From assembly GCA_951406725.2 (NCBI GenBank), contig OX597824.1, positions 94,798,001 to 94,862,000 of the forward strand: 64,000 bases of DNA, read 5' to 3'. The notes under the pieces are model-generated. The model was given only the letters and a program-made list of their open reading frames with translations. It ran no database searches and was not told where the DNA came from. Numbering within the stretch: the first letter of the stretch is position 1; each line of letters opens with the position of its first letter. This DNA comes from Octopus vulgaris (taxonomy: Eukaryota). Below are positions 13,927-64,000 of this stretch, in pieces. A program made the position numbers and the translations under genes.

Positions 13927-14407
13927 ACTTGACTTGACTTGAGACAGCATTCACCTGGGGTGGTTTGAGCTGGCTTCATTCATCCTCAATGCTGCATCTC
14001 TCACAAACACTGACCAGGCCTGGCGATTTGAGGCTAACGACTGCGTGATCTCCAACCACTCCTTATTCCAGCGGCGAACGCCATAGATAAGGGGGCCTAG
14101 GTTGGGTTCCAGGTCAGCCTTGACTGCCATCAGCCAGGTTTTTCGTTGTCCACCACATCGCTTTCGCCAACCCTGAAGCGGAGCTGGGGCAATTGCTTCG
14201 TAGATGAATTCTCCTGGTTGACGACGGAGGGCATGACCCAGCCAACGCAGATGTCTCGTTAGGATGACTTGTTGGAGGGAGGTGATTTTGCACTGGTGTC
14301 GCACCGAATTGTTGGAGACAAAGTGATGCCATTGGACACGAAAGATGCGGCGCAGACAGAGGTGATCTAAGGATTCTAGTCGCTTAATATCTTTCACCCT
14401 CAGGGTG
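13927..14407 (-). mobile_element. 5'-truncated RTE-clade LINE with 13-bp TSD
   Basis: ORF 13951-14397 (CLRRIF...LRWLGHALR...GGQRKTW) is a typical RTE ORF C-terminus. (CAAGT)n tail at 13927-13942. Exact TSD GAATAAGATCAGT at 13914-13926 and 14408-14420. Confidence 0.9.
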
Positions 14408-14934
14408 GAATAAGATCAGTGATAAACTGTTATCACCAATTTATAGCAAAATTTGCAGACAAAACCTCACTGTCCCTTGCAGCAAAAAGGAATGTAGCAC
14501 AGCAAGAAAGGGCCTTTAAGAAGAGAAAAGAACTTGCACAATACTTCTTTTTTGACAATATCCCCTATTTAAATGTAAAAGCAACTCTTGTTGAATTTGT
14601 AGTAGCAGGAACGATGCCTCCAGATGGAAAGACCATAACATATGTTAGTCATAAATTTTCTGGTACTCAGAGAAGTTGGAATGATATCTCACAGATACGT
14701 ATCATCTGATTCATGCTGGCTGGCAGAAGCACAGCTTGGATTAAGCATGAAGATGAAAAAAAACTCAGTTAACACTAATTGAATAAATTAGCTCCTAAAT
14801 ATCCCCCCCCCCCAGTCACATCTGCTAATCATGATATCATTGAATGAGCCTGTTATCACTGACTTCTCCATCCTCTCTAGAGTCACTGTTTGATCATGTG
14901 ATCCTCCACAGTGATGCTTCTGACAAGTCCAAAT

Positions 14935-17242: not shown

Positions 17243-17372
17243 ATGGATCCAAACCACTGGAGTAATTACAATCAGCCCTACAGCCGAATTAACCACAATA
17301 GTACCATGCCCTCAGCCCACAGTTCCATTAACCGTTATGAACTGCCACTTTTGGATCAAGGAATCGGAACAG
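17243..17372 (+). CDS. First coding exon (MDPNHWSNYNQPYSRINHNSTMPSAHSSINRYELPLLDQGIGT) of a putative QSER1/PRR12-like gene
   Basis: Strong Kozak context (tcaccATGg) and in-frame upstream stops. Donor AG|GTAAAA at 17372/17373 is phase 1 and joins in frame to 48267 and 57318. Candidate acceptors at 17102 or 17195. Confidence 0.8.
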
Positions 17373-17617
17373 GTAAAAACATTTACTTCAAGAAATTTAT
17401 AACTTCAAAGCTGTAACACTCTTAATTCTTTCTCCGTTTACATTCTGCAGACCAGCTTCTCTTATTTTTGCGACTCACAAGCATGTGTGCACCTGTGCAC
17501 ATATTTCTCTCATTTTAGTTCCTTTAACATTTATAGACAATAATTTCATCTCTCTCTCTATCTCTTTCTCTTATGAAATCTGTATTTACAGAAATTATGC
17601 TACTGTTATTGCCCCCA

Positions 17618-21636: not shown

Positions 21637-21780
21637 ATCATTTGACGTCCCTGTTTCATGTTGGCATTGGTTGGGCCATTTGACAGGGTCCAGTGTGTCC
21701 AAGGACAGTGTCAAGCCTCAATGTCTACTTTGGCACGGCTTTTAAAGCTGGATGTCCCTCCTTACACCAACCACTTTGCA
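21637..21780 (-). mobile_element. Family C retroposon (degraded) running into a minisatellite
   Basis: catcatttgacgtccctgtttcatgttggcattggttggg...gctggatgtccctccttacaccaaccact. Confidence 0.7.
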
Positions 21781-22210
21781 GCAAGTACTGGTTGCTTATC
21801 TCGTGGTACATGCACCATTGAGGCCACAGCAAGTACCGGTTGCTTTTCTCGTGGTACATGCACCATTGAGGCCACAGCAAGTACCGGTTGCTTTTCTCGT
21901 GGTACATGCACCATTGAGGCCACAGCAAGTACCGGTTGCTTTTCTCGTGGTACATGCACCATTGAGGCCACAGCAAGTACCGGTTGCTTTTCTCGTGGTA
22001 CATGCACCATTGAGGCCACAGCAAGTACCGGTTGCTTTTCTCGTGGTACATGCACCATTGAGGCCACAGCAAGTACCGGTTGCTTTTCTCGTGGTACGTG
22101 CACCATTGAGGCCACAGCAAGTACCGGTTGCTTTTCTCGTGGTACGTGCACCATTGAGGCCACAGCAAGTACCGGTTGCTTATCTCGTGGTACGTGCACC
22201 ATTGAGCCAC
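21781..22210. repeat. 48-bp minisatellite, 9 copies
   Basis: Unit gcaagtaccggttgcttttctcgtggtacatgcaccattgaggccaca at 21781, 21829 ... 22165. Confidence 0.97.
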
Positions 22211-22635
22211 TGTGCAGTTCACAGGACTTAGAACTCTGTGGGAGTGCCGGGGGCCTGCTTTATGTTTGGAGAGAAGGGGAACACTATGAGGGACAGGAGA
22301 CAGAGCAGGCACCTGTTGAGCATACTCCACTGCATGGATACTCACATTGTGTGTGTGTAAAATAAAACAAAAAGGAACAAAGGTGGTGGTATTGCATTTA
22401 TTTATTTATAATAAATGTGAGAGAGCCGTTTTTATTTTATATTCTGTGATGACTGCTCTATTCTTTAAATCAGTACATTACCTGGATTTTCAGTTGGTAG
22501 AACATTTCTGCTGTATGTGGATGATTTTTTTCCCCTTCTCCCTATACATCCAGTTAACTAGGATTTCACTTAGATTGATGATTGAGGTGTTTGCTTGGAT
22601 TTCCTGAATTCCCCTTCTCTTAAGATGTATATATA

Positions 22636-22870
22636 TATCTGTAAATGTAATATGTGACAATTATTTGGTAGCCAAGATAAAAAAAGATTTTTCATAGCGG
22701 TTTTTTCGATGGCCGGATAACTGAAGAGGTGGTGGTGTGGATTTCCACCTCGGAGTTTTATCTTGGCTACCGAATAATTGTCACATATTACATTTACAGA
22801 TAAATTCCTCTATTTACATGATATTGAGGTCTCTTTCTTTGTTTTGTTATCTTACCGTTTTTATCAATAA
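22636..22870. mobile_element. Penelope-like fold-back fragment
   Basis: 47-bp inverted arms (22636-22682 and 22756-22802, 1 mismatch), a hammerhead-like relic in the spacer and (TA)n flanks. Confidence 0.6.
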
Positions 22871-48266: not shown

Positions 48267-48323
48267 CTGTTTCCTGCCTTAACCGTTATGACTTGCCGCT
48301 ACTGGATCAAGGACTTGGAACAG
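48267..48323 (+). CDS. 57-nt phase 1-1 cassette exon ((A)VSCLNRYDLPLLDQGLGT), paralogue of the 3' end of the first coding exon
   Basis: Acceptor ttttccAG| and donor AG|GTAAAT. Frame-preserving, 14/19 aa identical to 17316-17372, with mostly synonymous differences. Confidence 0.75.
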
Positions 48324-54546: not shown

Positions 54547-55305
54547 ACACCACCACCACCATTGCCACCACCACCATTGCCACCACCACCACCACCACCA
54601 TTGCCACCACCACCACCACCACCACCATTGCCACCACCACCACCACCACCACCACCACCACCACCACCACCACCACCACCACCATTGCCACCACCATTGC
54701 CACCACCACCACCACCACCATTGCCACCACCACCACCACCATTGCCGCCACCACCACCACTACCACCACCACCACCATTGCCACCACCACCACCACCACC
54801 ACCACCACCACCATTGCCACCACCATTGCCACCACCACCACCACCACCACCATTGCCACCACCATCACCACCACCACCATTGCCACCGCCGCCACCACCA
54901 CCGCCATTGCCACCACCATTGCCACCACCACCACCATTGCCACCACCATCACCACCACCACCACCACCACCATTGCCACCACCATTGCCACCACCACCAT
55001 TGCCACCACCACCACCACCACCACCACCACCACCACCACCACCACCATTGCCACCACCACCACCACCACCACCACCACCATTGCCACCACCATCACCACC
55101 ACCACCATTGCCACCACCACCACCACCATTGCCACCACCATTGCCACCACCACCACCACCATTGCCACCACCATTGCCACCGCCACCACCACCACCGCCA
55201 TCACCACCACCACCATTGCCACCACCACCACCACCACCACCACCACCATTGCCACCACCACCACCACCACCACCACCACCACCACCACCACCACCACCAC
55301 CACCA
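54547..55305. repeat. About 760-bp (CCA)n tract interrupted by TTG, TCA and CCG triplets
   Basis: Directly visible. Confidence 0.97.
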
Positions 55306-56040: not shown

Positions 56041-56477
56041 AGTTAGTTAGTTAAGTTAGTTAATTTTTTGGCTCAAAAGCAAAAAGCAAGGCCATGTAGG
56101 GGGACATGGGTGGTGTTCCTGTAAAGAGTTCAGGCCACTTGAGGTCAAGGGAGACTTAGAACAAAGCGGTCGTCAGCATCTTCACTATCTCGTCTGGCAG
56201 CTTGTTCCACGGATCCGCAACCCGGATGGAGAAAACTCCTCGCCTTCGATTGAGATAAAATCGTCGCAGGTAGAGCTTTTCGGAGTGACCCCGCAGCCAA
56301 CGCTCTGGAGCAGGAGGGAAGAACAGCTCTTTCGAGAGGTTACACTTTCCGCTTATGATGTTGTGAGCGAGAATGAGATCACCACGGCAGCAGCGTTTTT
56401 CTAGAGAATAAAGGTCGAGCGTCTTCAGCCTTTCTTCATAAGACAAATTCTTGAGACCAAGAACCATGCGGGTAGCC
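56041..56477 (-). mobile_element. 5'-truncated CR1-clade LINE 3' end
   Basis: ATRMV.GL..LSYEERL..L.LYSLE.R..RGDLI...RGHS.KL...FS.RV...WN.LP is the canonical CR1 ORF2 C-terminus. (TAAC)n tail at 56041-56062. Possible ATATT TSD. Confidence 0.9.
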
Positions 56478-57101
56478 ATATTGTGAGATATCTTATTGTA
56501 TGATGTAGTAAATTGACTGCTTTAGTTTGTCCACCTGAAAATAGCTTCCATCTTCACTTGCTGATTCAGAGATTAGCATCAAGAGGGCCATCTAGTTTCA
56601 GCAACTTTTTGAGTCTTAACATTCGCAAAAAGGAACCACCACCCTGTACAGCAGCTGCGATAAAAGAAGCAAAGTGATAACTTTAATTTTATAATTCATT
56701 GAGAATTCATTTTGTGTTCAAGCTGCCTTTTCCTGGCAGGTATTTATCAAGCACAAATTCTGTTGATTATAATATTTGTTTCTCTCATCGGCATTATTAT
56801 GCTTTGATTAAATTAAAGTATCTCACACTGCTTATTATAAAACAGATATTTAGATTGTAAGGAACCAGAATACTTGTGGTACATGTTGGATTGATATGTA
56901 AATTCTGACCTGTTTATTTTGAATGTAGAAATTAATCTTATATTTGTTATCCTCATTACAAAAGAAAGACATGTCTTAAAAAGATAAATGTTTGATTAAA
57001 TATTAACCATAGAAATAAAGGAATAGAAACATCAATGAACTTCATTCGTTTTAGTAAAAAATATTTTAGTTCTTAATGTTAAATTTATTCATCTTACACA
57101 T

Positions 57102-57150
<49 letters not shown>

Positions 57151-57317
57151 GTAATTTAGTTTGAAAAAGAAACTGTTAAAAATCCAAATAGCTATGTTTT
57201 GAGAATCCTTTTCCAAATATTGACCCTTTTTTTTTTCTATCTAGAAATACGAACACAAAATTCAATAACTTCCTTTGGCATTTGTCTCAATGTTTTTTCT
57301 TTCTTTTTTCTTTGTAG

Positions 57318-60300
57318 GTCTAGGGGCATTGTCCCCATCTCTCTCCCCACATACAAGTTTACCACCAGCTCGTGGTCTTGGGGGTATTCCCCAAGTAAAC
57401 TATGGCCATCCATTACACAATTCAGTCACTCAGTTTTTGGATAGTATGAATCTACAATCATCCTTCCCTAGCCAATCACATTACAAACCGGTTCCCACCT
57501 CTTTTCCTTTTGATTCAGCTCCTCGGTCATCGGCAGAACAACCAACCTGTTACAGCTCGGGGAGGTACGTGACCTCCTCTCACAGTGGAGTTCCTGCTCA
57601 CAGTAAATCTCTCTTCAATCAAGATTTTCATTCAAGCAAAGATTTAGCCAGCAGCCTCACCCCATCTCCTATGTCACCCAATCCTCATGTTCCTGAAGCA
57701 AGTAGCAAAAGCTGGAGTCTGTCTAATTTTGTCCCAACCTCATCAAATCCCTTTGCAAATCTCACTAACGAGCTCTCTGGACCAGGAAATTATGCGCCAG
57801 CGTCTCCTAGTCCCCAACAACACATTCCTCCCCCAGCTCACAGCACCAACAGAGCAATCAGTAGTCTTTCTCAAAGAAGCCCCTACCAGCCAGACCCTAT
57901 CTACTGTTCAACTTCTCTACCTAGTAGTAAGTCGGTTCCATCTCCACAGTTACCGCCAGTCTATAGCCGCACCACTTCACAATCAACAAAACCGGCCCAC
58001 TCGCCACAGTTGCCTTCTTCATACAATATGTCCAACATGAATCATGAGCAACAACAACCTGCTACCCCCCTCTCTCAACCTCCAACACCAAGACCATCAA
58101 ATTATTCTTCCCCCCAGGACTTGGAAAATATGTCTGGCTCACAGTCACCCATGTATGATCCCTACAGCTGCATCAGTACTAAAAGTTATTCTGTAGCATC
58201 TAGTGCTCCCACTTACTCTTCTGTAAATCATGTGACACCCGAGATGGGCTATGATCCTGTTAGTCCAACTCAACCACTCTCCGAACAACCATCTCAACAG
58301 CATCAACAGGGGGATTCTTTCTGTACAGTCTCTTTGCAAGATTTGGCTTCAATTGGATCTAGTCAAGACCGCATGCAAGATATGAAAAATCGAGAAAGTG
58401 TGTTGCTTCAAGAAACCTCTCATATCATGCTGCACAGTACTGCCAATAAGGGAGTCTCTCCTTCACTTTCTGATCTGCAGCAGACTGTCCAGAGTATCAC
58501 CTCACGCCCTCAGACTATTCCAGCAGCACACAACATGCATAATGGCCAACTTTCTCAAAGTGTTCACAGTCCCATGCAGCAATCACCTATCAGTGTGGGG
58601 AGTCCGCAGGCTCCAATAGCACTTGGAAGCCCGCAGACTCCTCTTCCCAGTTCCACTATAGTGCAAGCACCTCCTCCAGTTCAAGCGGTTGCTGATTCAA
58701 CAACCAAACCCAAACGTGGACGTGGACGCAAGAAGAAAGACATAATTTATGACAAAGCTCTTGAACTTGGACAAGAACATTTATTTAATGAAGAACCCCT
58801 AAATATGACGCAAGGAACAGCCAATGTATTCCCCAACATGGCACAAGTGATGTCGCAACAGTGCCATGACACCCTTCCTCCACAACCATTAACTGAAGAT
58901 ACCCTGAGCCCCACTTACCAAGACCACGTTGACGAACAGCGACTCAAAGTTCAGAACGTCAGTCCTGTTTTAGACCCTTCTTTATCTGTCGGTCGCTTAA
59001 ATGACCACCACCAGGATGCATCTCCTGTAAGTATGCAACAGTTTTCAGTACGAGGTAATGTTGAGAGCTCTCAACATGGATCTGATCATGTGACAAACAT
59101 GCACCCCCCATCAGTATCTGGTAGTATTGGTAGTCCACAAGGTGTTTTATCGGAGGATATGCCCAGTGCCGCTACACCTCTCTCTGAACGTATTGAACAG
59201 CCATCTGCCATTACTGACCAATACTCAGATAGTTTAACTCCACCCACAACAACGCCAGATCTACCAGATATTCAGAACTATGGTATGAGGCGCTTGACTG
59301 AATCATCTTATGTTAATACGATGGCATCCCAACTTGGCCCCGGCCAGATGAATTTGCACCAGCAGGATCCAATGTGCCAAGACAGTATGACGCTTTCTAA
59401 GCAGAATGCATCTTTGCAAATGCAACCTCCTCCATCTTACATGAACTTCTCTCAGGTATCAACGCCAAAAGATTTGGTACCTGCTTCTAACAGTTTTGAA
59501 GATTTAGCTATGGATAAAGATGGTGATGCACCCGAATTCGATGATTTAGTTGATGCCAACACTGCTGATACGAAGCGACAGTTGCTCTCTCAAGAAGACG
59601 AGACCATTGGAGCAGCTATGGCTACCATTTCTGCTGACTTCTCTTTGTCCGATAAAAAGCAAAAAAGAAGTCGTACTAAAGCAGAACAAAAACAAATGCC
59701 TACCAATGTAATAGCTGTTACACTCCAGGCTGAGTTTGATGAAGAATTCCAACACTTGCAAGATAAAGTTATGCTTGATGGTGAACTGCTGAGAAAAACG
59801 GAGAATAAATCCAAAAAGTGTTTTGATGCTTTCCAAGAAAGCTACATAAATTTCTTACAAGGTAAAAAAACAGAGACGCTCTCCAGCCTGAGTTATTCTA
59901 ATATTACTAGACGCACCCATGCTACGAAATATGATCCAAGGTTTTATAATTCTATATTAAATAATTTGCCAGTTGGTGATTTTGGAACTGGGTATAAAAG
60001 ACCTCTTACTACTACAACAGATTTGGGCAGTTCTAAATTGAATGATACATTGGGCATGAATCAGCCTGCAACCCCTTTTTCTGATGAGGAGAACAGTATT
60101 AATACAGTTGAAGATTTATTTCAGAATCTTTGTGATAACTTTGAATCTGACAATCAGATGCATAGACAGTCAGTAGAGTTTGGACGGGGTCCTCGTCGTG
60201 GGCGGGGAGGCCGTGGCAGTAGAGGGCCCCGTGCAAAACGAGCACGTGGTAGGAGCCGAACTTTCTCTGGTGAAAGAGAAGTTATGGAGTTCTTTGATAA

Positions 60301-60413
60301 AGGAACAACAGAAAACGATGTTGAAAAACCCATTGTACCTGTGTTACCTTTAAGGCAAACTTCTTCTCGTAAGGCAAAAGAAAAAACCCTCACACGAAGA
60401 AAGCGCAAAAATG
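57318..60413 (+). CDS. 3096-nt internal coding exon of a Ser/Pro/Gln-rich nuclear protein, putatively QSER1/PRR12-like
   Basis: Open for over 1000 codons of non-repetitive sequence. Acceptor ttcttttttctttgtAG| and donor G|GTAAGT, phase 1-1. Contains an AT-hook-like KPKRGRGRKKK, an RG-rich segment and FQESYINFLQGKK. The exon is well supported; the family call is from memory and much less certain. Confidence 0.9.
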
Positions 60414-60716
60414 GTAAGTCAGACTTTTAGTTCCATTTCGTAATATTTTTTTCCAGGTTTTTATGTTCTCAGAACCTGTTTTAAATTAACTGTATTGCTC
60501 TTTTTTTTAAAAAATGCTAATGAATGTTTTATTCCTGAAAGATTTTGGTTTATGTGTCTTGAGTTGAACCTTGTCACTGCCATATTCTGCTTGCTTAGGC
60601 CAACCTAGGTAACATCCCATTGACTTGAAAGTTGCCTTGTATCAATTATTGATGACAATGATAGGCTTGTCCCGTTCATTCGATATTATGGTGGAATTTG
60701 TTTATTTCATGCTGTG

Positions 60717-60944
60717 TATGAAAGCATGCTGAAAAGTTTCTGGCTTTGGACAAAAAAAAAAAAATCCCACAGGAGGATCAGTTAATTATGATTTTAGTCA
60801 ACACATTCCACTTTGAGATTTATATGCTTATTGCAGTGACCCTTCAGTTTTACTAAGCCCTGTAAAACAACTCAGAAAGTTGGGCCTCCAACCAAGCCTT
60901 TTGCGATGCCCTTAAAGCCAGGAACCTTTCAGCACCCCCTTGTA
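60717..60944. mobile_element. Tc1/mariner-type MITE
   Basis: TA-flanked imperfect TIRs: tgctgaaaagtttctggcttt and aaagccaggaacctttcagca. Confidence 0.7.
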
Positions 60945-61549
60945 TATATTTGTCATAATTTTAACCAAAAAAAAGAAAAAAAAAGTAGAGATGGTTCTAA
61001 AAAAAATTTGGAACTCTTCAGACTGATATCATGTTAAACTTAAATTACATTCTATGTTTTCCTGTGATTATAATTGTTTCCATAGCAATTACATGAGGTG
61101 TGGGATTGTGTGAAATAGCACTTGTATTATGAGAACAACATTTTTTAACGGATAATATATCATCATTATTCTTAGATGAACTTATTCACTGTTGTAATAT
61201 TGTAATTTCTGAGAATTTCTGTGATTTTCAGTCTGGTTCAATTCACATCTGTGTGAATAAAGTGCCAAGAGTGTTATGGCAGACCATCAGATTTTTAGAA
61301 GTTTTGTAACATATAAAAATGAAACGAGAGCATTAAAATTGTTTTAAAACAAACACGAGTGCACACATTGCACTTTGTTTCAAAGGAATATGCACTCACT
61401 GGGTGTAGTGTATGAACGAAAAAGGTGCAACTTGCACTGGCGTAAATGTTGTTAGTACTTAACAGATTGGGCAGAAAGACTACAGAGTCGAGACATTGAA
61501 AGTGGTTCCATCTCCACAGTTAACTCCAGTCTAAAGAAGCACTACTTCC

Positions 61550-62532
61550 CAATCGACAAAACTGGCCCACTTGCCACAGTTGCCCCTTTCATATGTCCAG
61601 CAGGGCACAATCGACAAAACTGGCCCACTCGCCACAGTTGCCCCTTTCATATGTCCAGCAGGGCACAATCGACAAAACTGGCCCACTCGCCACAGTTGCC
61701 CCTTTCATATGTCCAGCAAGGCACAATTGACAAAACTGGCCCACTTGCCACAGTTGCCCCTTTCATATGTCCAGCAGGGCACAATCGACAAAACTGGCCC
61801 ACTCGCCGCAGTTGGCCTTTTCATATGTCCAGCAAGGCACAATCGACAAAACTGGCCCACTTGCCACAGTTGCCCCTTTCATATGTCCAGCAGGGCACAA
61901 TCGACAAAACTGGCCCACTTGCCACAGTTGCCCCTTTCATATGTCCAGCAGGGCACAATCGACAAAACTGGCCCACTCGCCGCAGTTGCCCCTTTCATAT
62001 GTCCAGCAGGGCACAATCGACAAAACTGGCCCACTTGCCACAGTTGCCCCTTTCATATGTCCAGCAAGGCACAATTGACAAAACTGGCCCACTTGCCACA
62101 GTTGCCCCTTTCATATGTCCAGCAGGGCACAATCGACAAAACTGGCCCACTCGCCACAGTTGCCCCTTTCATATGTCCAGCGGGGCACAATCGACAAAAC
62201 TGGCCCACTTGCCACAGTTGCCCCTTTCATATGTCCAGCAGGGCACAATTGACAAAACTGGCCCACTCGCCACAGTTGCCCCTTTCATATGTCCAGCAAG
62301 GCACAATCGCAAAACTGGCCCACTTGCCACAGTTGCCCCTTTCATATGTCCAGCAAGGCACAATCGACAAAACTGGCCCACTTGCCACAGTTGCCCCTTT
62401 CATATGTCCAGCGGGGCACAATCGACAAAACTGGCCCACTCGTCACAGTTGCCCCTTTCATATGTCCAGCAGGGCACAATCGACAAAACTGGCCCACTCG
62501 CCACTGTTGCCCCTTTCATATGTCCAGCAGGG
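61550..62532 (+). repeat. 58-bp minisatellite, about 17 copies, derived from the gene's own exon
   Basis: Unit caatcgacaaaactggcccacttgccacagttgcccctttcatatgtccagcagggca. Unit and flanks match exon sequence 57930-58065. Confidence 0.95.
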
Positions 62533-62574
62533 ATTATGAGCAACGACAATCTGCTACATTTTTTTAGTAATACT

Positions 62575-62830
62575 AGTTGTATTGCCCGTACTTGTTGTTA
62601 TCATGTTTACGGAAGGGAAACAAACTTCCCAAAGATATGAAGTTAAGAAAAGGATTGCTTTGAGTGTTTTTGTTGTGATGAAGGGGTTTCTAAACGGGAG
62701 AGCGAACCAGGATGAAGCTGTGTCTGTTGATGCCTGCTGAAGTTTCAGCCTCCCACTTCTGATTTCTGGATACTTATCTTCTTCTGGAATGGTAAATTTC
62801 ACTGACTCAGACATGTTTAGCATTGACATC
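62575..62830 (-). mobile_element. hAT (Charlie-like) transposase C-terminal relic
   Basis: EEDKYPEIRS.RLKLQ.AST....W...TKTLKAILFLTSYLWEVCFPSVNMI resembles the hAT dimerisation region (KALKILLPFxTxYLCExGFS). Confidence 0.6.
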
Positions 62831-62855
62831 TGTCCCTCTTATCCACTGAAGATGT

Positions 62856-63016
62856 ATAGGCGCAGGAGTGGCTATGTGGTAAGTAGCTTGCTTACCAACC
62901 ACATGGTTCTGGGCTCAGTCCCACTGCAAGGCACCTTGGGCAAGTGTGTTCTACTATAGCTTCGGGCTGACCAATGCCTTGTGAGTGGATTTGGTAGATG
63001 GAAAATGAAAGAAGCC

Positions 63017-63053
<37 letters not shown>

Positions 63054-63065
63054 ATGTGTTTGTGC
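62856..63065 (+). mobile_element. Family A SINE, 3'-truncated
   Basis: ataggcgcaggagtggctatgtggtaag head through (TG)n(TA)n. Confidence 0.85.
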
Positions 63066-63835
63066 GACTCTTATCATGTTAGTTTTTCTTTAAAAGAATT
63101 CATTTTTGTCAGTGCAACTAAGAATATTTCCTTTTTCCCTGCATAAAGTTCAGAGGTCTATGATTTTGAGATGAGGTCTTTTCTGCAGATAAAATGGTGT
63201 ATATAAAAAAAAAAAAAAAAATTTGCATTCTCAACATAGAAAGCCCACCGTCTATGCAGATACTGATATATATATTGTCCATGATTAATTATGGGAGTAG
63301 AAATAACTTAACATAAAAATATCTTTTCCTCTTGTTGCTTCTGATAATGACTTACAAAATAAAATTGCTCCCTGATGTCTTTATTACAAACAAAATCTTG
63401 TGAATGTTAGAAGCTGAGCTTTACATCGGTGGATTCATTCAACCGGGCAGCTTGTGTGCATGCACACACAACACATAGATTCTTTTATGCATTGGCTAAC
63501 AGTTATCCAGCATAGGAAGGCTAGTTCTTCTCGTATGCCTCGGCAAATGGAATATTCCCCATTTTGCAATATCCAGGGGAAATACTGACTTGGCTTTTTT
63601 CTTCATGAACCCTGTTATGAAAATGTCTTTTTTAGCTGACTTGGAACCAGTGTCTAGTTTGCTGGTTTCTCAGTACATATGATGTGGCTGCAGGTCTCTC
63701 AATGAAGTAAATCTGAAATCCAAATAGTTCTTATTTAATTGGTGCACTATTATTTTGGAACCAGCACCAGGAGCAACCAATTCTAGTATCAGTTACTATC
63801 ATCAAATTAGATATTTTTAACAATTTTTTTCATGG

Positions 63836-64000
63836 TTAACCCTTTTGTTACTAACTCTGGCTCTGTGGTAAAATGTCCTGCTTTCATAAGCGTTGAATTA
63901 AAAATCTTCCACCAAGCCTTAGTCACAATTTATGTTCCTAACACTAGCTTAATGATAACTAAGTTATTTTACTAAATTCTTTGTTATATTTAAAATTAAT
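63836..64000. mobile_element. piggyBac-type MITE (family D2), runs off the window
   Basis: Starts TTAACCCTTTTGTTAC. Reverse homologue of 5500-5678. Confidence 0.65.

What the first reader, a model, noticed from the sequence alone, without database searches (positions are those of the whole stretch)
61501..62556. A piece of the gene's own exon copied into the next intron and amplified 17-fold
Seen: 61501-61549 matches exon 57930-57979 (ggttccatctccacagtta..ccagtcta). The 58-bp unit matches about 57980-58037 (QSTKPAHSPQLPSSY becomes QSTKLAHSPQLPLSY). The right flank attatgagcaacgacaatctgctac matches atcatgagcaacaacaacctgctac. So about 135 nt was duplicated in the same orientation 3.6 kb downstream, diverged, and its middle then expanded into homogeneous repeats. 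Because 58 is not a multiple of 3, the unit cycles through all frames and two stay open for over 320 codons. Inference: birth of a minisatellite from coding sequence, probably by templated repair. It could act as a decoy for exon-binding factors, a recombination substrate with the exon, or raw material for exonisation. It is the second local self-copy in this gene.
Basis: partly seen in the sequence, partly recalled or inferred. Interest (0 to 1): 0.8.

Follow-up and report, generated by a model that had tools for sequence, protein, structure and literature searches.

The report
Exon-derived minisatellite in an octopus intron
In an octopus gene, a 137-base piece from the middle of a large exon sits as a decayed copy in the next intron, with 58 of its bases repeated 17 times; it likely began as a DNA-repair accident followed much later by ordinary repeat growth, and the likely-RNA data examined show no splicing into it.

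Summary
Observation confirmed. The gene is an Octopus QSER1/PRR12-like gene (exon identical to an O. vulgaris model). Exon bases 57929-58065 recur 3,571 nt downstream at 61500-62557 in the same orientation: 113 of 131 aligned bases are identical, with two deletions and a stop. The middle 58 nt forms 17 units that differ by 4.2% on average. The unit-to-unit junction is present in 6 of 7 public runs laid, so the array is real. At 85% likeness only the exon and one pair of flanks carry the unit, so it is not a dispersed family. Depth suggests roughly 12-17 copies in one vulgaris-type run and 3-7 in sinensis-type runs. Substitutions fall 6/6/6 across codon positions, as in neutral decay. Three likely-RNA runs and 14 protein models show no exonisation. 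Best reading: a repair-mediated proximal duplication of the kind described by Pace et al. 2009, which later seeded a variable minisatellite and is spliced out unused. Exon-derived intronic arrays are known (chicken exon stuttering, amphioxus mirages), but these usually copy exon borders; here the source is mid-exon. The scan had not found this unit elsewhere, though it noted exon-border arrays in skate, shark and octopods. A clean textbook case of low-to-moderate interest.

The parts
57318..60413 (+). Large coding exon of a QSER1/PRR12-like (DUF4211) gene, the source exon
   Evidence: 0 of 1031 aa differ from O. vulgaris CAI9730706.1 and 16 differ from O. bimaculoides XP_014781450.1; likely-RNA contigs span 57316-60413; acceptor and donor contexts
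57929..58065 (+). Donor segment (137 nt), 611 nt from the exon's 5' end and 2,348 nt from its 3' end
57978..58040 (+). Part of the donor (63 nt) that corresponds to the 58-nt unit
61500..61547 (+). Single-copy left part of the intronic copy (6 substitutions, a 1-nt deletion, TAA in the donor's frame)
   Evidence: no difference from the window in run X6
61548..62532 (+). Minisatellite: 17 units of 58 nt (unit 14 is 57 nt), 4.2% mean pairwise difference; the first and last units carry private variants also seen in run X6
62533..62557 (+). Single-copy right part of the intronic copy (3 substitutions in 25 nt)
   Evidence: joined to the last unit in X2, X3 and X6
61456..62640 (+). Open frame of 394 codons through the array; no sign of use
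   Evidence: Pfam hits have 0 passing stretches
61535..62539 (+). Second open frame, 334 codons
61464..61466 (+). Weak candidate splice acceptor that would join the exon in frame to the 394-codon frame (391 aa to stop); not seen used
   Evidence: 9 of 17 pyrimidines against 16 of 17 at the real acceptor; no likely-RNA contig on 61383-61549 in X8 or X9
61493..61497 (+). ACATT, repeated at 62556-62560: a possible 5-nt target-site duplication or a chance match
   Evidence: about 7.5% by chance
48267..48323 (+). Context: the earlier self-copy in this gene (57-nt cassette exon)
   Evidence: earlier finding e1-9805773

Best explanation
A 137-nt piece from the interior of the exon was copied 3.6 kb downstream into the next intron, likely as a patch during repair of a DNA break; the copy decayed by about 14%, likely without selection, and 58 nt of it later multiplied into a 17-unit minisatellite that likely varies in copy number and is likely removed unused with the intron. 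Step 1 (inferred): a broken intron end invaded the nearby exon, copied 137 nt and re-annealed (synthesis-dependent strand annealing, or polymerase-theta-type templated synthesis; the two cannot be told apart here). This happened after the octopus line had acquired its own version of this protein segment. Step 2 (pattern shown, neutrality inferred): substitutions are spread evenly over codon positions and over the three parts of the copy, with two frameshifting deletions and a stop. Step 3 (inferred): one tandem duplication of a 58-nt sub-segment, before the vulgaris-type and sinensis-type lines split, since both have the junction and share the end units. Step 4 (inferred): copy number changed by unequal exchange, conversion or slippage among units, shuffling variants inside while the end units stayed put.
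For: Size (137 nt), distance (3,571 nt) and single other copy fit the proximal repair-mediated duplications of PMC2671141 (mean 162 bp, within 5 kb). The 18 mismatches fall 6/6/6 by codon position, 6 of 48 in the left part, 9 of 58 in the unit (8 fixed) and 3 of 25 in the right part. The donor peptide is unchanged across the three named Octopus species. The copy has the Octopus states (extra Thr, Thr for Ala, short Gln run), not those of P0002/P0003. Similarity stops at both ends: 81 of 100 and 68 of 100 shuffles score as well as the collinear flanks. The junction is in X2, X3, X5, X6, X9 and X14, not in X8. At 85% likeness 12, 4 and 5 contigs of X2, X3 and X6 lie on the last unit and its flank, and the only loose ends are the exon and the left flank. 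Junction depth over flank depth is 5.0-5.7 in X6, 2.6-3.2 in X3 and 1.7 in X5; summed unit depth over flank depth is 11.6-16.5 in X2 (rough). X6 differs from the window at 7 of about 1,440 bases laid downstream of the exon, far below the 13.7% between copy and donor. All four allele combinations occur at 5 of 10 pairs of variable columns. The same gene holds another GC-rich array, 48 nt x 9, grown inside a dispersed repeat.
Against: No empty site or unexpanded orthologue was seen, so microhomology, filler and deletion at the breakpoints are untested. A 5-nt direct repeat flanks the copy, and a run of 7 T begins 1 nt past its right end; the T run is on the wrong side for a poly(A) tail. The array ends show no microhomology arms, so the seed duplication does not fit the common microhomology model. 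Copy numbers rest on contig depths, which the tool says are no copy number. The RNA evidence is 3 runs only guessed to be RNA, kept as contigs that drop rare forms, and the tables were cut (2 joints and 227 loose ends not shown). A stop-free unit is uncommon (6-8%).
Confidence: 0.68

Rival explanations
1. The first step was RNA-templated: a fragment of the gene's own transcript was reverse-transcribed into a break in the same gene, and the later steps were the same.
For: The copy is wholly exonic and in sense orientation. ACATT flanks both sides and could be a target-site duplication.
Against: There is no poly(A) at the 3' end and no splice junction inside, so nothing requires RNA. The 5-nt repeat arises by chance in about 7.5% of trials. 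In PMC2671141, 0 of 39 proximal cases had a poly(A/T) tail against 17 of 29 distant ones.
Confidence: 0.11
2. The copy is the remnant of a larger tandem duplication of the exon region that was later trimmed by deletion.
For: Same orientation and short distance. The gene has another local duplicate, the cassette exon.
Against: There is no residual similarity on either side, and no other exon-intron match in the window. It needs a second event.
Confidence: 0.07
3. Insertion and amplification were one old event (repeated template switching, or rolling copy of a small circle), and the units were homogenised afterwards.
For: There are no microhomology arms at the array ends, and the array predates the split of the two lineages seen.
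Against: All units share 8 substitutions and a 5-nt deletion against the exon, including the end units, which usually escape homogenisation (PMC3087553 section 16). Divergence is the same in the flanks and in the unit.
Confidence: 0.06
4. The array is used: a weak acceptor at 61466 (or the CAG acceptors in each unit) makes an alternative last exon that replaces the DUF4211 half of the protein with a repeat tail, or the array acts as a splicing decoy.
For: 61466 is in phase with the donor and opens 391 codons; two unit acceptors open 345-346 codons. All three TGA variants share one frame. The junction is present in 2 of 3 likely-RNA runs. The X8 exon contig ends one base past the donor, which I read as two spliced continuations.
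Against: No contig lies on 61383-61549 in X8 or X9, and X14 has no loose end into the unit and no right flank. Junction depth (6.6 in X9; 28.1 in X14, about 1.8 per junction if there are 16) is at the level of intron pieces (2.9-5.6). 0 of 14 protein models hold array peptides. The frame is not the donor's frame. Rfam finds 0 matches and the unit does not fold better than shuffles (z 0.25-0.97).
Confidence: 0.05
5. The unit belongs to a dispersed repeat, or was carried by a transposon (a Helitron-like end lies 14 nt to the right on the minus strand).
For: ACTAGT at 62572 with a short imperfect stem beside it (the Helitron end motif is recalled, not from a call).
Against: The right flank 62540-62850 is covered by one contig per run at 85% likeness, and no foreign flank joins the unit. 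The stem is weak. There are 0 matches in metagenome and viral contigs.
Confidence: 0.03

Closest known systems
Proximal repair-mediated duplications (Pace et al. 2009, PMC2671141; parts 1-5 of 8 of the text read; term search)
   Same: Short (137 nt against a mean of 162 and a maximum of 619), within 5 kb of a single donor, no poly(A) tail, neutral decay; exons copied into introns of the same gene are reported (ACSBG2).
   Different: Described in vertebrates only; here a mollusc. That paper does not mention minisatellites (0 occurrences); here the copy later seeded one. Breakpoint signatures could not be checked.
Exon stuttering of chicken dot chromosomes (Hron et al. 2026, PMC12954441; abstract, section 7 and the first part of section 9 read; figures and supplements not seen)
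   Same: Exon sequence multiplied in tandem in the neighbouring intron (1-44 copies, exon parts 20-187 bp), the exon left intact, length varying between individuals.
   Different: There over 90% of sources lie within 1 base of the exon border and carry the splice site. Here the source is 611 and 2,348 nt from the borders, carries no splice site, and the array is 14% diverged from it and starts 1.1 kb into the intron. The minority of non-border chicken cases may resemble this one; the unseen Fig. S5 would tell.
Mirage minisatellites of amphioxus (PMC3087553; abstract and section 16 read)
   Same: Intragenic minisatellite containing exon sequence, allelic copy-number differences, end units excluded from homogenisation, normal splicing.
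   Different: Mirages span an exon-intron boundary and are continuous with the exon; this array is detached and derives from a prior interspersed copy.
Doublets (Thomas et al. 2004; seen only as cited in PMC2671141; otherwise recalled)
   Same: Short local duplications at close range.
   Different: Defined as near-identical pairs under 100 bp; this one is longer, 14% diverged and amplified.
Microhomology-mediated tandem duplication as the seed of tandem repeats (bioRxiv 10.64898/2026.02.28.708716; abstract and section 9 read)
   Same: A single-copy segment goes from one to two to many copies.
   Different: No microhomology arm is seen at either end of this array.

Membership tests
Proximal repair-mediated duplication (PMC2671141) | Insertion of at least 50 bp with one other copy in the genome | tested here: met
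   137 nt; only the exon and one pair of flanks at 85% likeness in X2, X3 (76% of the run read) and X6. Tested on contigs of runs, not on an assembly.
Proximal repair-mediated duplication (PMC2671141) | Donor more than 50 bp and less than 5 kb from the acceptor | tested here: met
   3,571 nt
Proximal repair-mediated duplication (PMC2671141) | No poly(A/T) retrotransposition tail | tested here: inconclusive
   No poly(A). A run of 7 T begins 1 nt past the right end; it is on the wrong side for the tail of a sense or antisense RNA copy (inference), but meets the paper's literal wording of a tract of 5 or more.
Proximal repair-mediated duplication (PMC2671141) | Microhomology, filler or deletion at the breakpoints, judged against the empty site | not testable with these tools
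   No genome held; no orthologous locus in metagenome contigs
Proximal repair-mediated duplication (PMC2671141) | Divergence from the donor as under neutral evolution | tested here: met
   6/6/6 by codon position, two frameshifts, one stop
Single-locus minisatellite / VNTR (definition recalled) | Head-to-tail units of tens of bases at one locus | tested here: met
Single-locus minisatellite / VNTR (definition recalled) | Copy number differs between alleles or individuals | tested here: inconclusive
   Depth ratios point to about 3-7 copies in X3, X5 and X6 and about 12-17 in X2; rough, and no reads span the array
Single-locus minisatellite / VNTR (definition recalled) | Interspersed variant units with stable end units | tested here: met
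   Four allele combinations at 5 of 10 column pairs; first and last units unchanged in X6
Exon stuttering / mirage repeats | Exon sequence multiplied in the adjacent intron, exon intact | tested here: met
Exon stuttering / mirage repeats | The unit includes the exon border and its splice site | tested here: not met
   Source 611 nt and 2,348 nt from the borders
Microhomology-mediated tandem duplication | Microhomology arm at the array ends | tested here: not met
   0 matching bases on extension to either side
Helitron-carried or dispersed repeat | Multiple genomic copies with different flanks; 3' hairpin and CTAG end (motif recalled) | tested here: not met
   One contig per run on the flank at 85% likeness and no foreign flanks; weak stem

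The most novel reading that the evidence does not exclude
The array is a cryptic alternative last exon. In some tissue the big exon splices in frame to the acceptor at 61466 and yields a QSER1/PRR12-like isoform that loses its DUF4211 half and gains a 391-residue tail read through all three frames of a piece of its own exon, with the tail's length and ending set by the minisatellite allele.
Probability: 0.04. Interest if true: 0.7.

Novelty: new variant of a known kind. Interest (0 to 1): 0.3.

Why it matters
The ancestral sequence of a minisatellite unit is rarely known. Here it survives, under purifying selection, 3.6 kb away, so the order of events (local copy, long decay, late seed duplication, lineage-specific growth) can be read directly and dated once more octopod introns are compared. 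It extends repair-mediated duplication from vertebrates to a mollusc and shows a second route to exon-like intronic arrays that does not start at a splice site. It may also serve as a length marker between vulgaris-type and sinensis-type animals. Nothing found suggests a function, and each step is a known process, so a specialist would find it neat rather than surprising.

Tried and rejected
No whole genome is held, so genome-wide BLASTN was replaced by laying contigs of public runs. A protein search among longer proteins found nothing; the near-length search worked. Pfam hits on the two array frames (alpha/beta hydrolase and others) have 0 passing stretches and come from summed repeats, so they were rejected; the exon itself had 0 families. 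Hairpin-driven expansion: the unit dimer folds no better than shuffles (z 0.25 to 0.97). Rfam gave 0 matches in 57000-64000. Gene conversion from exon to copy: the longest perfect match, 21 nt, is reached in 49% of simulations. Seeding by the exon's own internal SPQLP repeat: its spacing is 60 nt, not 58, and the unit borders differ (read from the sequence). An assembly artefact was rejected by the junction contigs. Helitron capture is not supported. The search for orthologous loci found none: 187 pattern matches and 0 relatives in metagenome contigs, and 0 matches of the unit core in metagenome or viral contigs. Lack of RNA cover on 61383-61549 and on 62540-62850 is absence in contigs and only weak evidence. 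Seven literature searches listed no paper on a repair-type exon copy that later became a minisatellite, or on this locus. The library lacks most subscription journals, and only listings were seen for papers other than the four read.

Full report
What is there. The window is octopus DNA. The 1,031-codon stretch read from 57320-60412 is identical to O. vulgaris CAI9730706.1, differs at 1 residue from O. sinensis XP_029642578.1 and at 16 from O. bimaculoides XP_014781450.1. Relatives carry PF13926 (DUF4211), and one is named glutamine and serine-rich protein 1-like, so I call it QSER1/PRR12-like. Coding pieces in the window are 17243-17374, the cassette 48267-48323 and the large exon 57318-60413; the next exon was not found in the window. 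Everything from 60414 on is therefore intron.

The copy. With the array collapsed to one unit, 61500-62557 aligns end to end with exon 57929-58065: 113 of 131 aligned bases are identical, with a 1-nt and a 5-nt deletion. The score is 176 against at most 48 in 30 shuffles. No other exon-intron match occurs in the window, and similarity stops sharply at both ends. The 18 mismatches fall 6/6/6 on codon positions, include a stop, and are spread evenly: 6 of 48, 9 of 58 and 3 of 25 in the left part, the unit and the right part. The donor peptide is the same in all three named species, so the changes lie mostly in the copy. The copy has the Octopus form of this segment, not that of the two more distant unnamed relatives P0002 and P0003, so it arose after those lines parted. 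Run X6 (sinensis-type) differs from the window at 7 of about 1,440 bases laid downstream of the exon, so the copy is roughly 25-30 times more diverged from its donor than the two lineages are from each other. I give no absolute date.

The array. It is exactly 17 units in register with the exon (61548-62532; unit 14 lacks one base), with 11 variable columns and 4.2% mean pairwise difference. All units share 8 substitutions and the 5-nt deletion against the exon, so amplification most likely came after most of the decay. Variants recur in non-adjacent units and show all four combinations at 5 of 10 column pairs, as expected from exchange among units; recurrent CpG change could account for columns 7 and 25 but not column 56. 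The ends show no microhomology arms, and the unit has no unusual folding. It is 53% GC in an intron of 34-36% GC, like the 48-nt x 9 array at 21779-22210 (52% GC), which grew inside a dispersed repeat. Local arrays are therefore not rare in this gene.

Independent data. Twenty of 24 listed runs hold the region; I laid 7 of them on two stretches, each with one unit. The unit-to-unit junction is in X5, X6 and X9 but not X8, and in X2, X3, X6 and X14: 6 of 7 runs. The four large genomic-type runs come from three studies. At 85% likeness only 12, 4 and 5 contigs of X2, X3 and X6 lie on the last unit and its flank, and the loose ends are the exon itself and the left flank (6 pieces not shown; 76% of X3 was read). 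That is the result expected of one locus plus the donor. X5 and X6 carry the allele that gives the O. sinensis residue, and X3 shares all 6 right-flank differences with X6, while X2 shares 2. Depth ratios suggest about 6-7 units in X6, about 4 in X3, about 3 or more in X5 and about 12-17 in X2. The tool warns that contig depth is no copy number, so these are indications only. The first and last units, with their private variants, are unchanged in X6: the array predates the split and has changed inside.

Is it used? A weak acceptor at 61466 would join the exon in frame to a 391-codon read-through, and each unit holds a CAG pair after a short pyrimidine run. In X8 and X9 the exon contigs end at 60413 at depths 81.9 and 42.8, intron pieces sit at 2.9-5.6, and nothing covers 61383-61549. 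In X14 the only two contigs laid are the exon and the junction, with no loose end into a unit acceptor and no right flank. Junction depth is 6.6 in X9 and 28.1 in X14, about what pooled intron background over many units would give (inference). None of 14 protein models holds array peptides. No variant appears in the donor segment in 4 of 4 runs, and the longest perfect match between donor and array is 21 nt, which 49% of simulations reach. Against full confidence: these runs are only guessed to be RNA, contigs drop rare forms, tissues are unknown and the tables were cut. The two long frames are mildly unusual (a stop-free unit in 5.6-7.9% of controls; three TGA variants in one frame, 1 in 9), but they are not the donor's frame at the entry point.

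Mechanism. I commit to two steps far apart in time: a repair-type templated copy from the nearby exon, then an ordinary minisatellite expansion on the decayed copy, with no function (0.68). The copy's size, distance, decay and single-locus state are shown; the repair pathway, the order of events and neutrality are inferred. The rivals are an RNA-templated first step (0.11), a trimmed larger duplication (0.07), one-step amplification with later homogenisation (0.06), use as an exon or decoy (0.05) and transposon carriage (0.03).

Comparison. The first step works like the proximal repair-mediated duplications of PMC2671141 (824 human cases within 5 kb, mean 162 bp, including exons copied into introns). 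It meets the size, distance, single-donor and neutrality features; the breakpoint feature cannot be tested without an empty site, so membership is likely rather than shown. The end state resembles chicken exon stuttering (PMC12954441) and amphioxus mirages (PMC3087553) but fails their border-and-splice-site feature, so I do not file it there; a minority of the chicken cases had non-border sources, and I did not see that paper's figures or supplements. It fails the microhomology-arm feature of the bioRxiv model. Seven searches listed no paper on this two-step combination or this locus, within the limits of the library. The scan's own index has no look-alike of this sequence but has several exon-border arrays in other genomes and in this one; those notes are unchecked AI notes and served only as leads.

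Verdict. Real, single-locus, old copy with a young, probably variable array; a new variant assembled from known parts; no sign of function. Interest 0.3.

Noticed in passing
window 61020-61027: Two O. bimaculoides models (P0024, P0025) end with one Asp right after the big exon. The only AG followed by an Asp-completing pair and a stop in 60414-64000 is at 61022: a possible stop-containing alternative exon 480 nt before the copy. It is not listed as a joint in X8 or X9, and an X8 contig runs unbroken across it.
   Followed up: partly
window 60413: The X8 exon contig ends one base past the donor with no unspliced continuation, which I read as two spliced continuations that share a first base; neither was seen in the stretch laid.
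   Followed up: partly
window 21779-22210: A 48-nt x 9 array at 98% matches grown at the end of a dispersed repeat that has many diverged copies in the window; several open frames run through it. Same kind of expansion, different seed.
   Followed up: partly
window 48267-48323: A 57-nt cassette exon resembling the end of the first coding exon, present in some protein models and absent in others by length; the subject of earlier finding e1-9805773.
   Followed up: partly
window 62572-62612: ACTAGT with a short imperfect stem beside it, like a decayed Helitron 3' end on the minus strand (motif recalled); the flank is single-copy at 85% likeness.
   Followed up: partly
window 54548-55305: A 760-nt degenerate CAC/CAT triplet array with 27-nt and 33-nt higher periods and long open frames in five frames.
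   Followed up: no
window 22633-22805: A 50-nt inverted repeat at 96% identity with about 73 nt between the arms.
   Followed up: no
window 60769-60945: A short very-high-copy dispersed element between the exon and the copy; thousands of contigs lie on it in X5 and X6, with sharp ends near 60769 and 60945.
   Followed up: no
window 13951-14415 (-) and 56156-56521 (-): Two open frames that look like the C-terminal ends of non-LTR retrotransposon proteins (resemblance recalled, not tested).
   Followed up: no
window 57938-58014: The donor segment holds an internal SPQLP repeat 60 nt apart, conserved in P0002 and P0003; the array did not use this spacing.
   Followed up: partly
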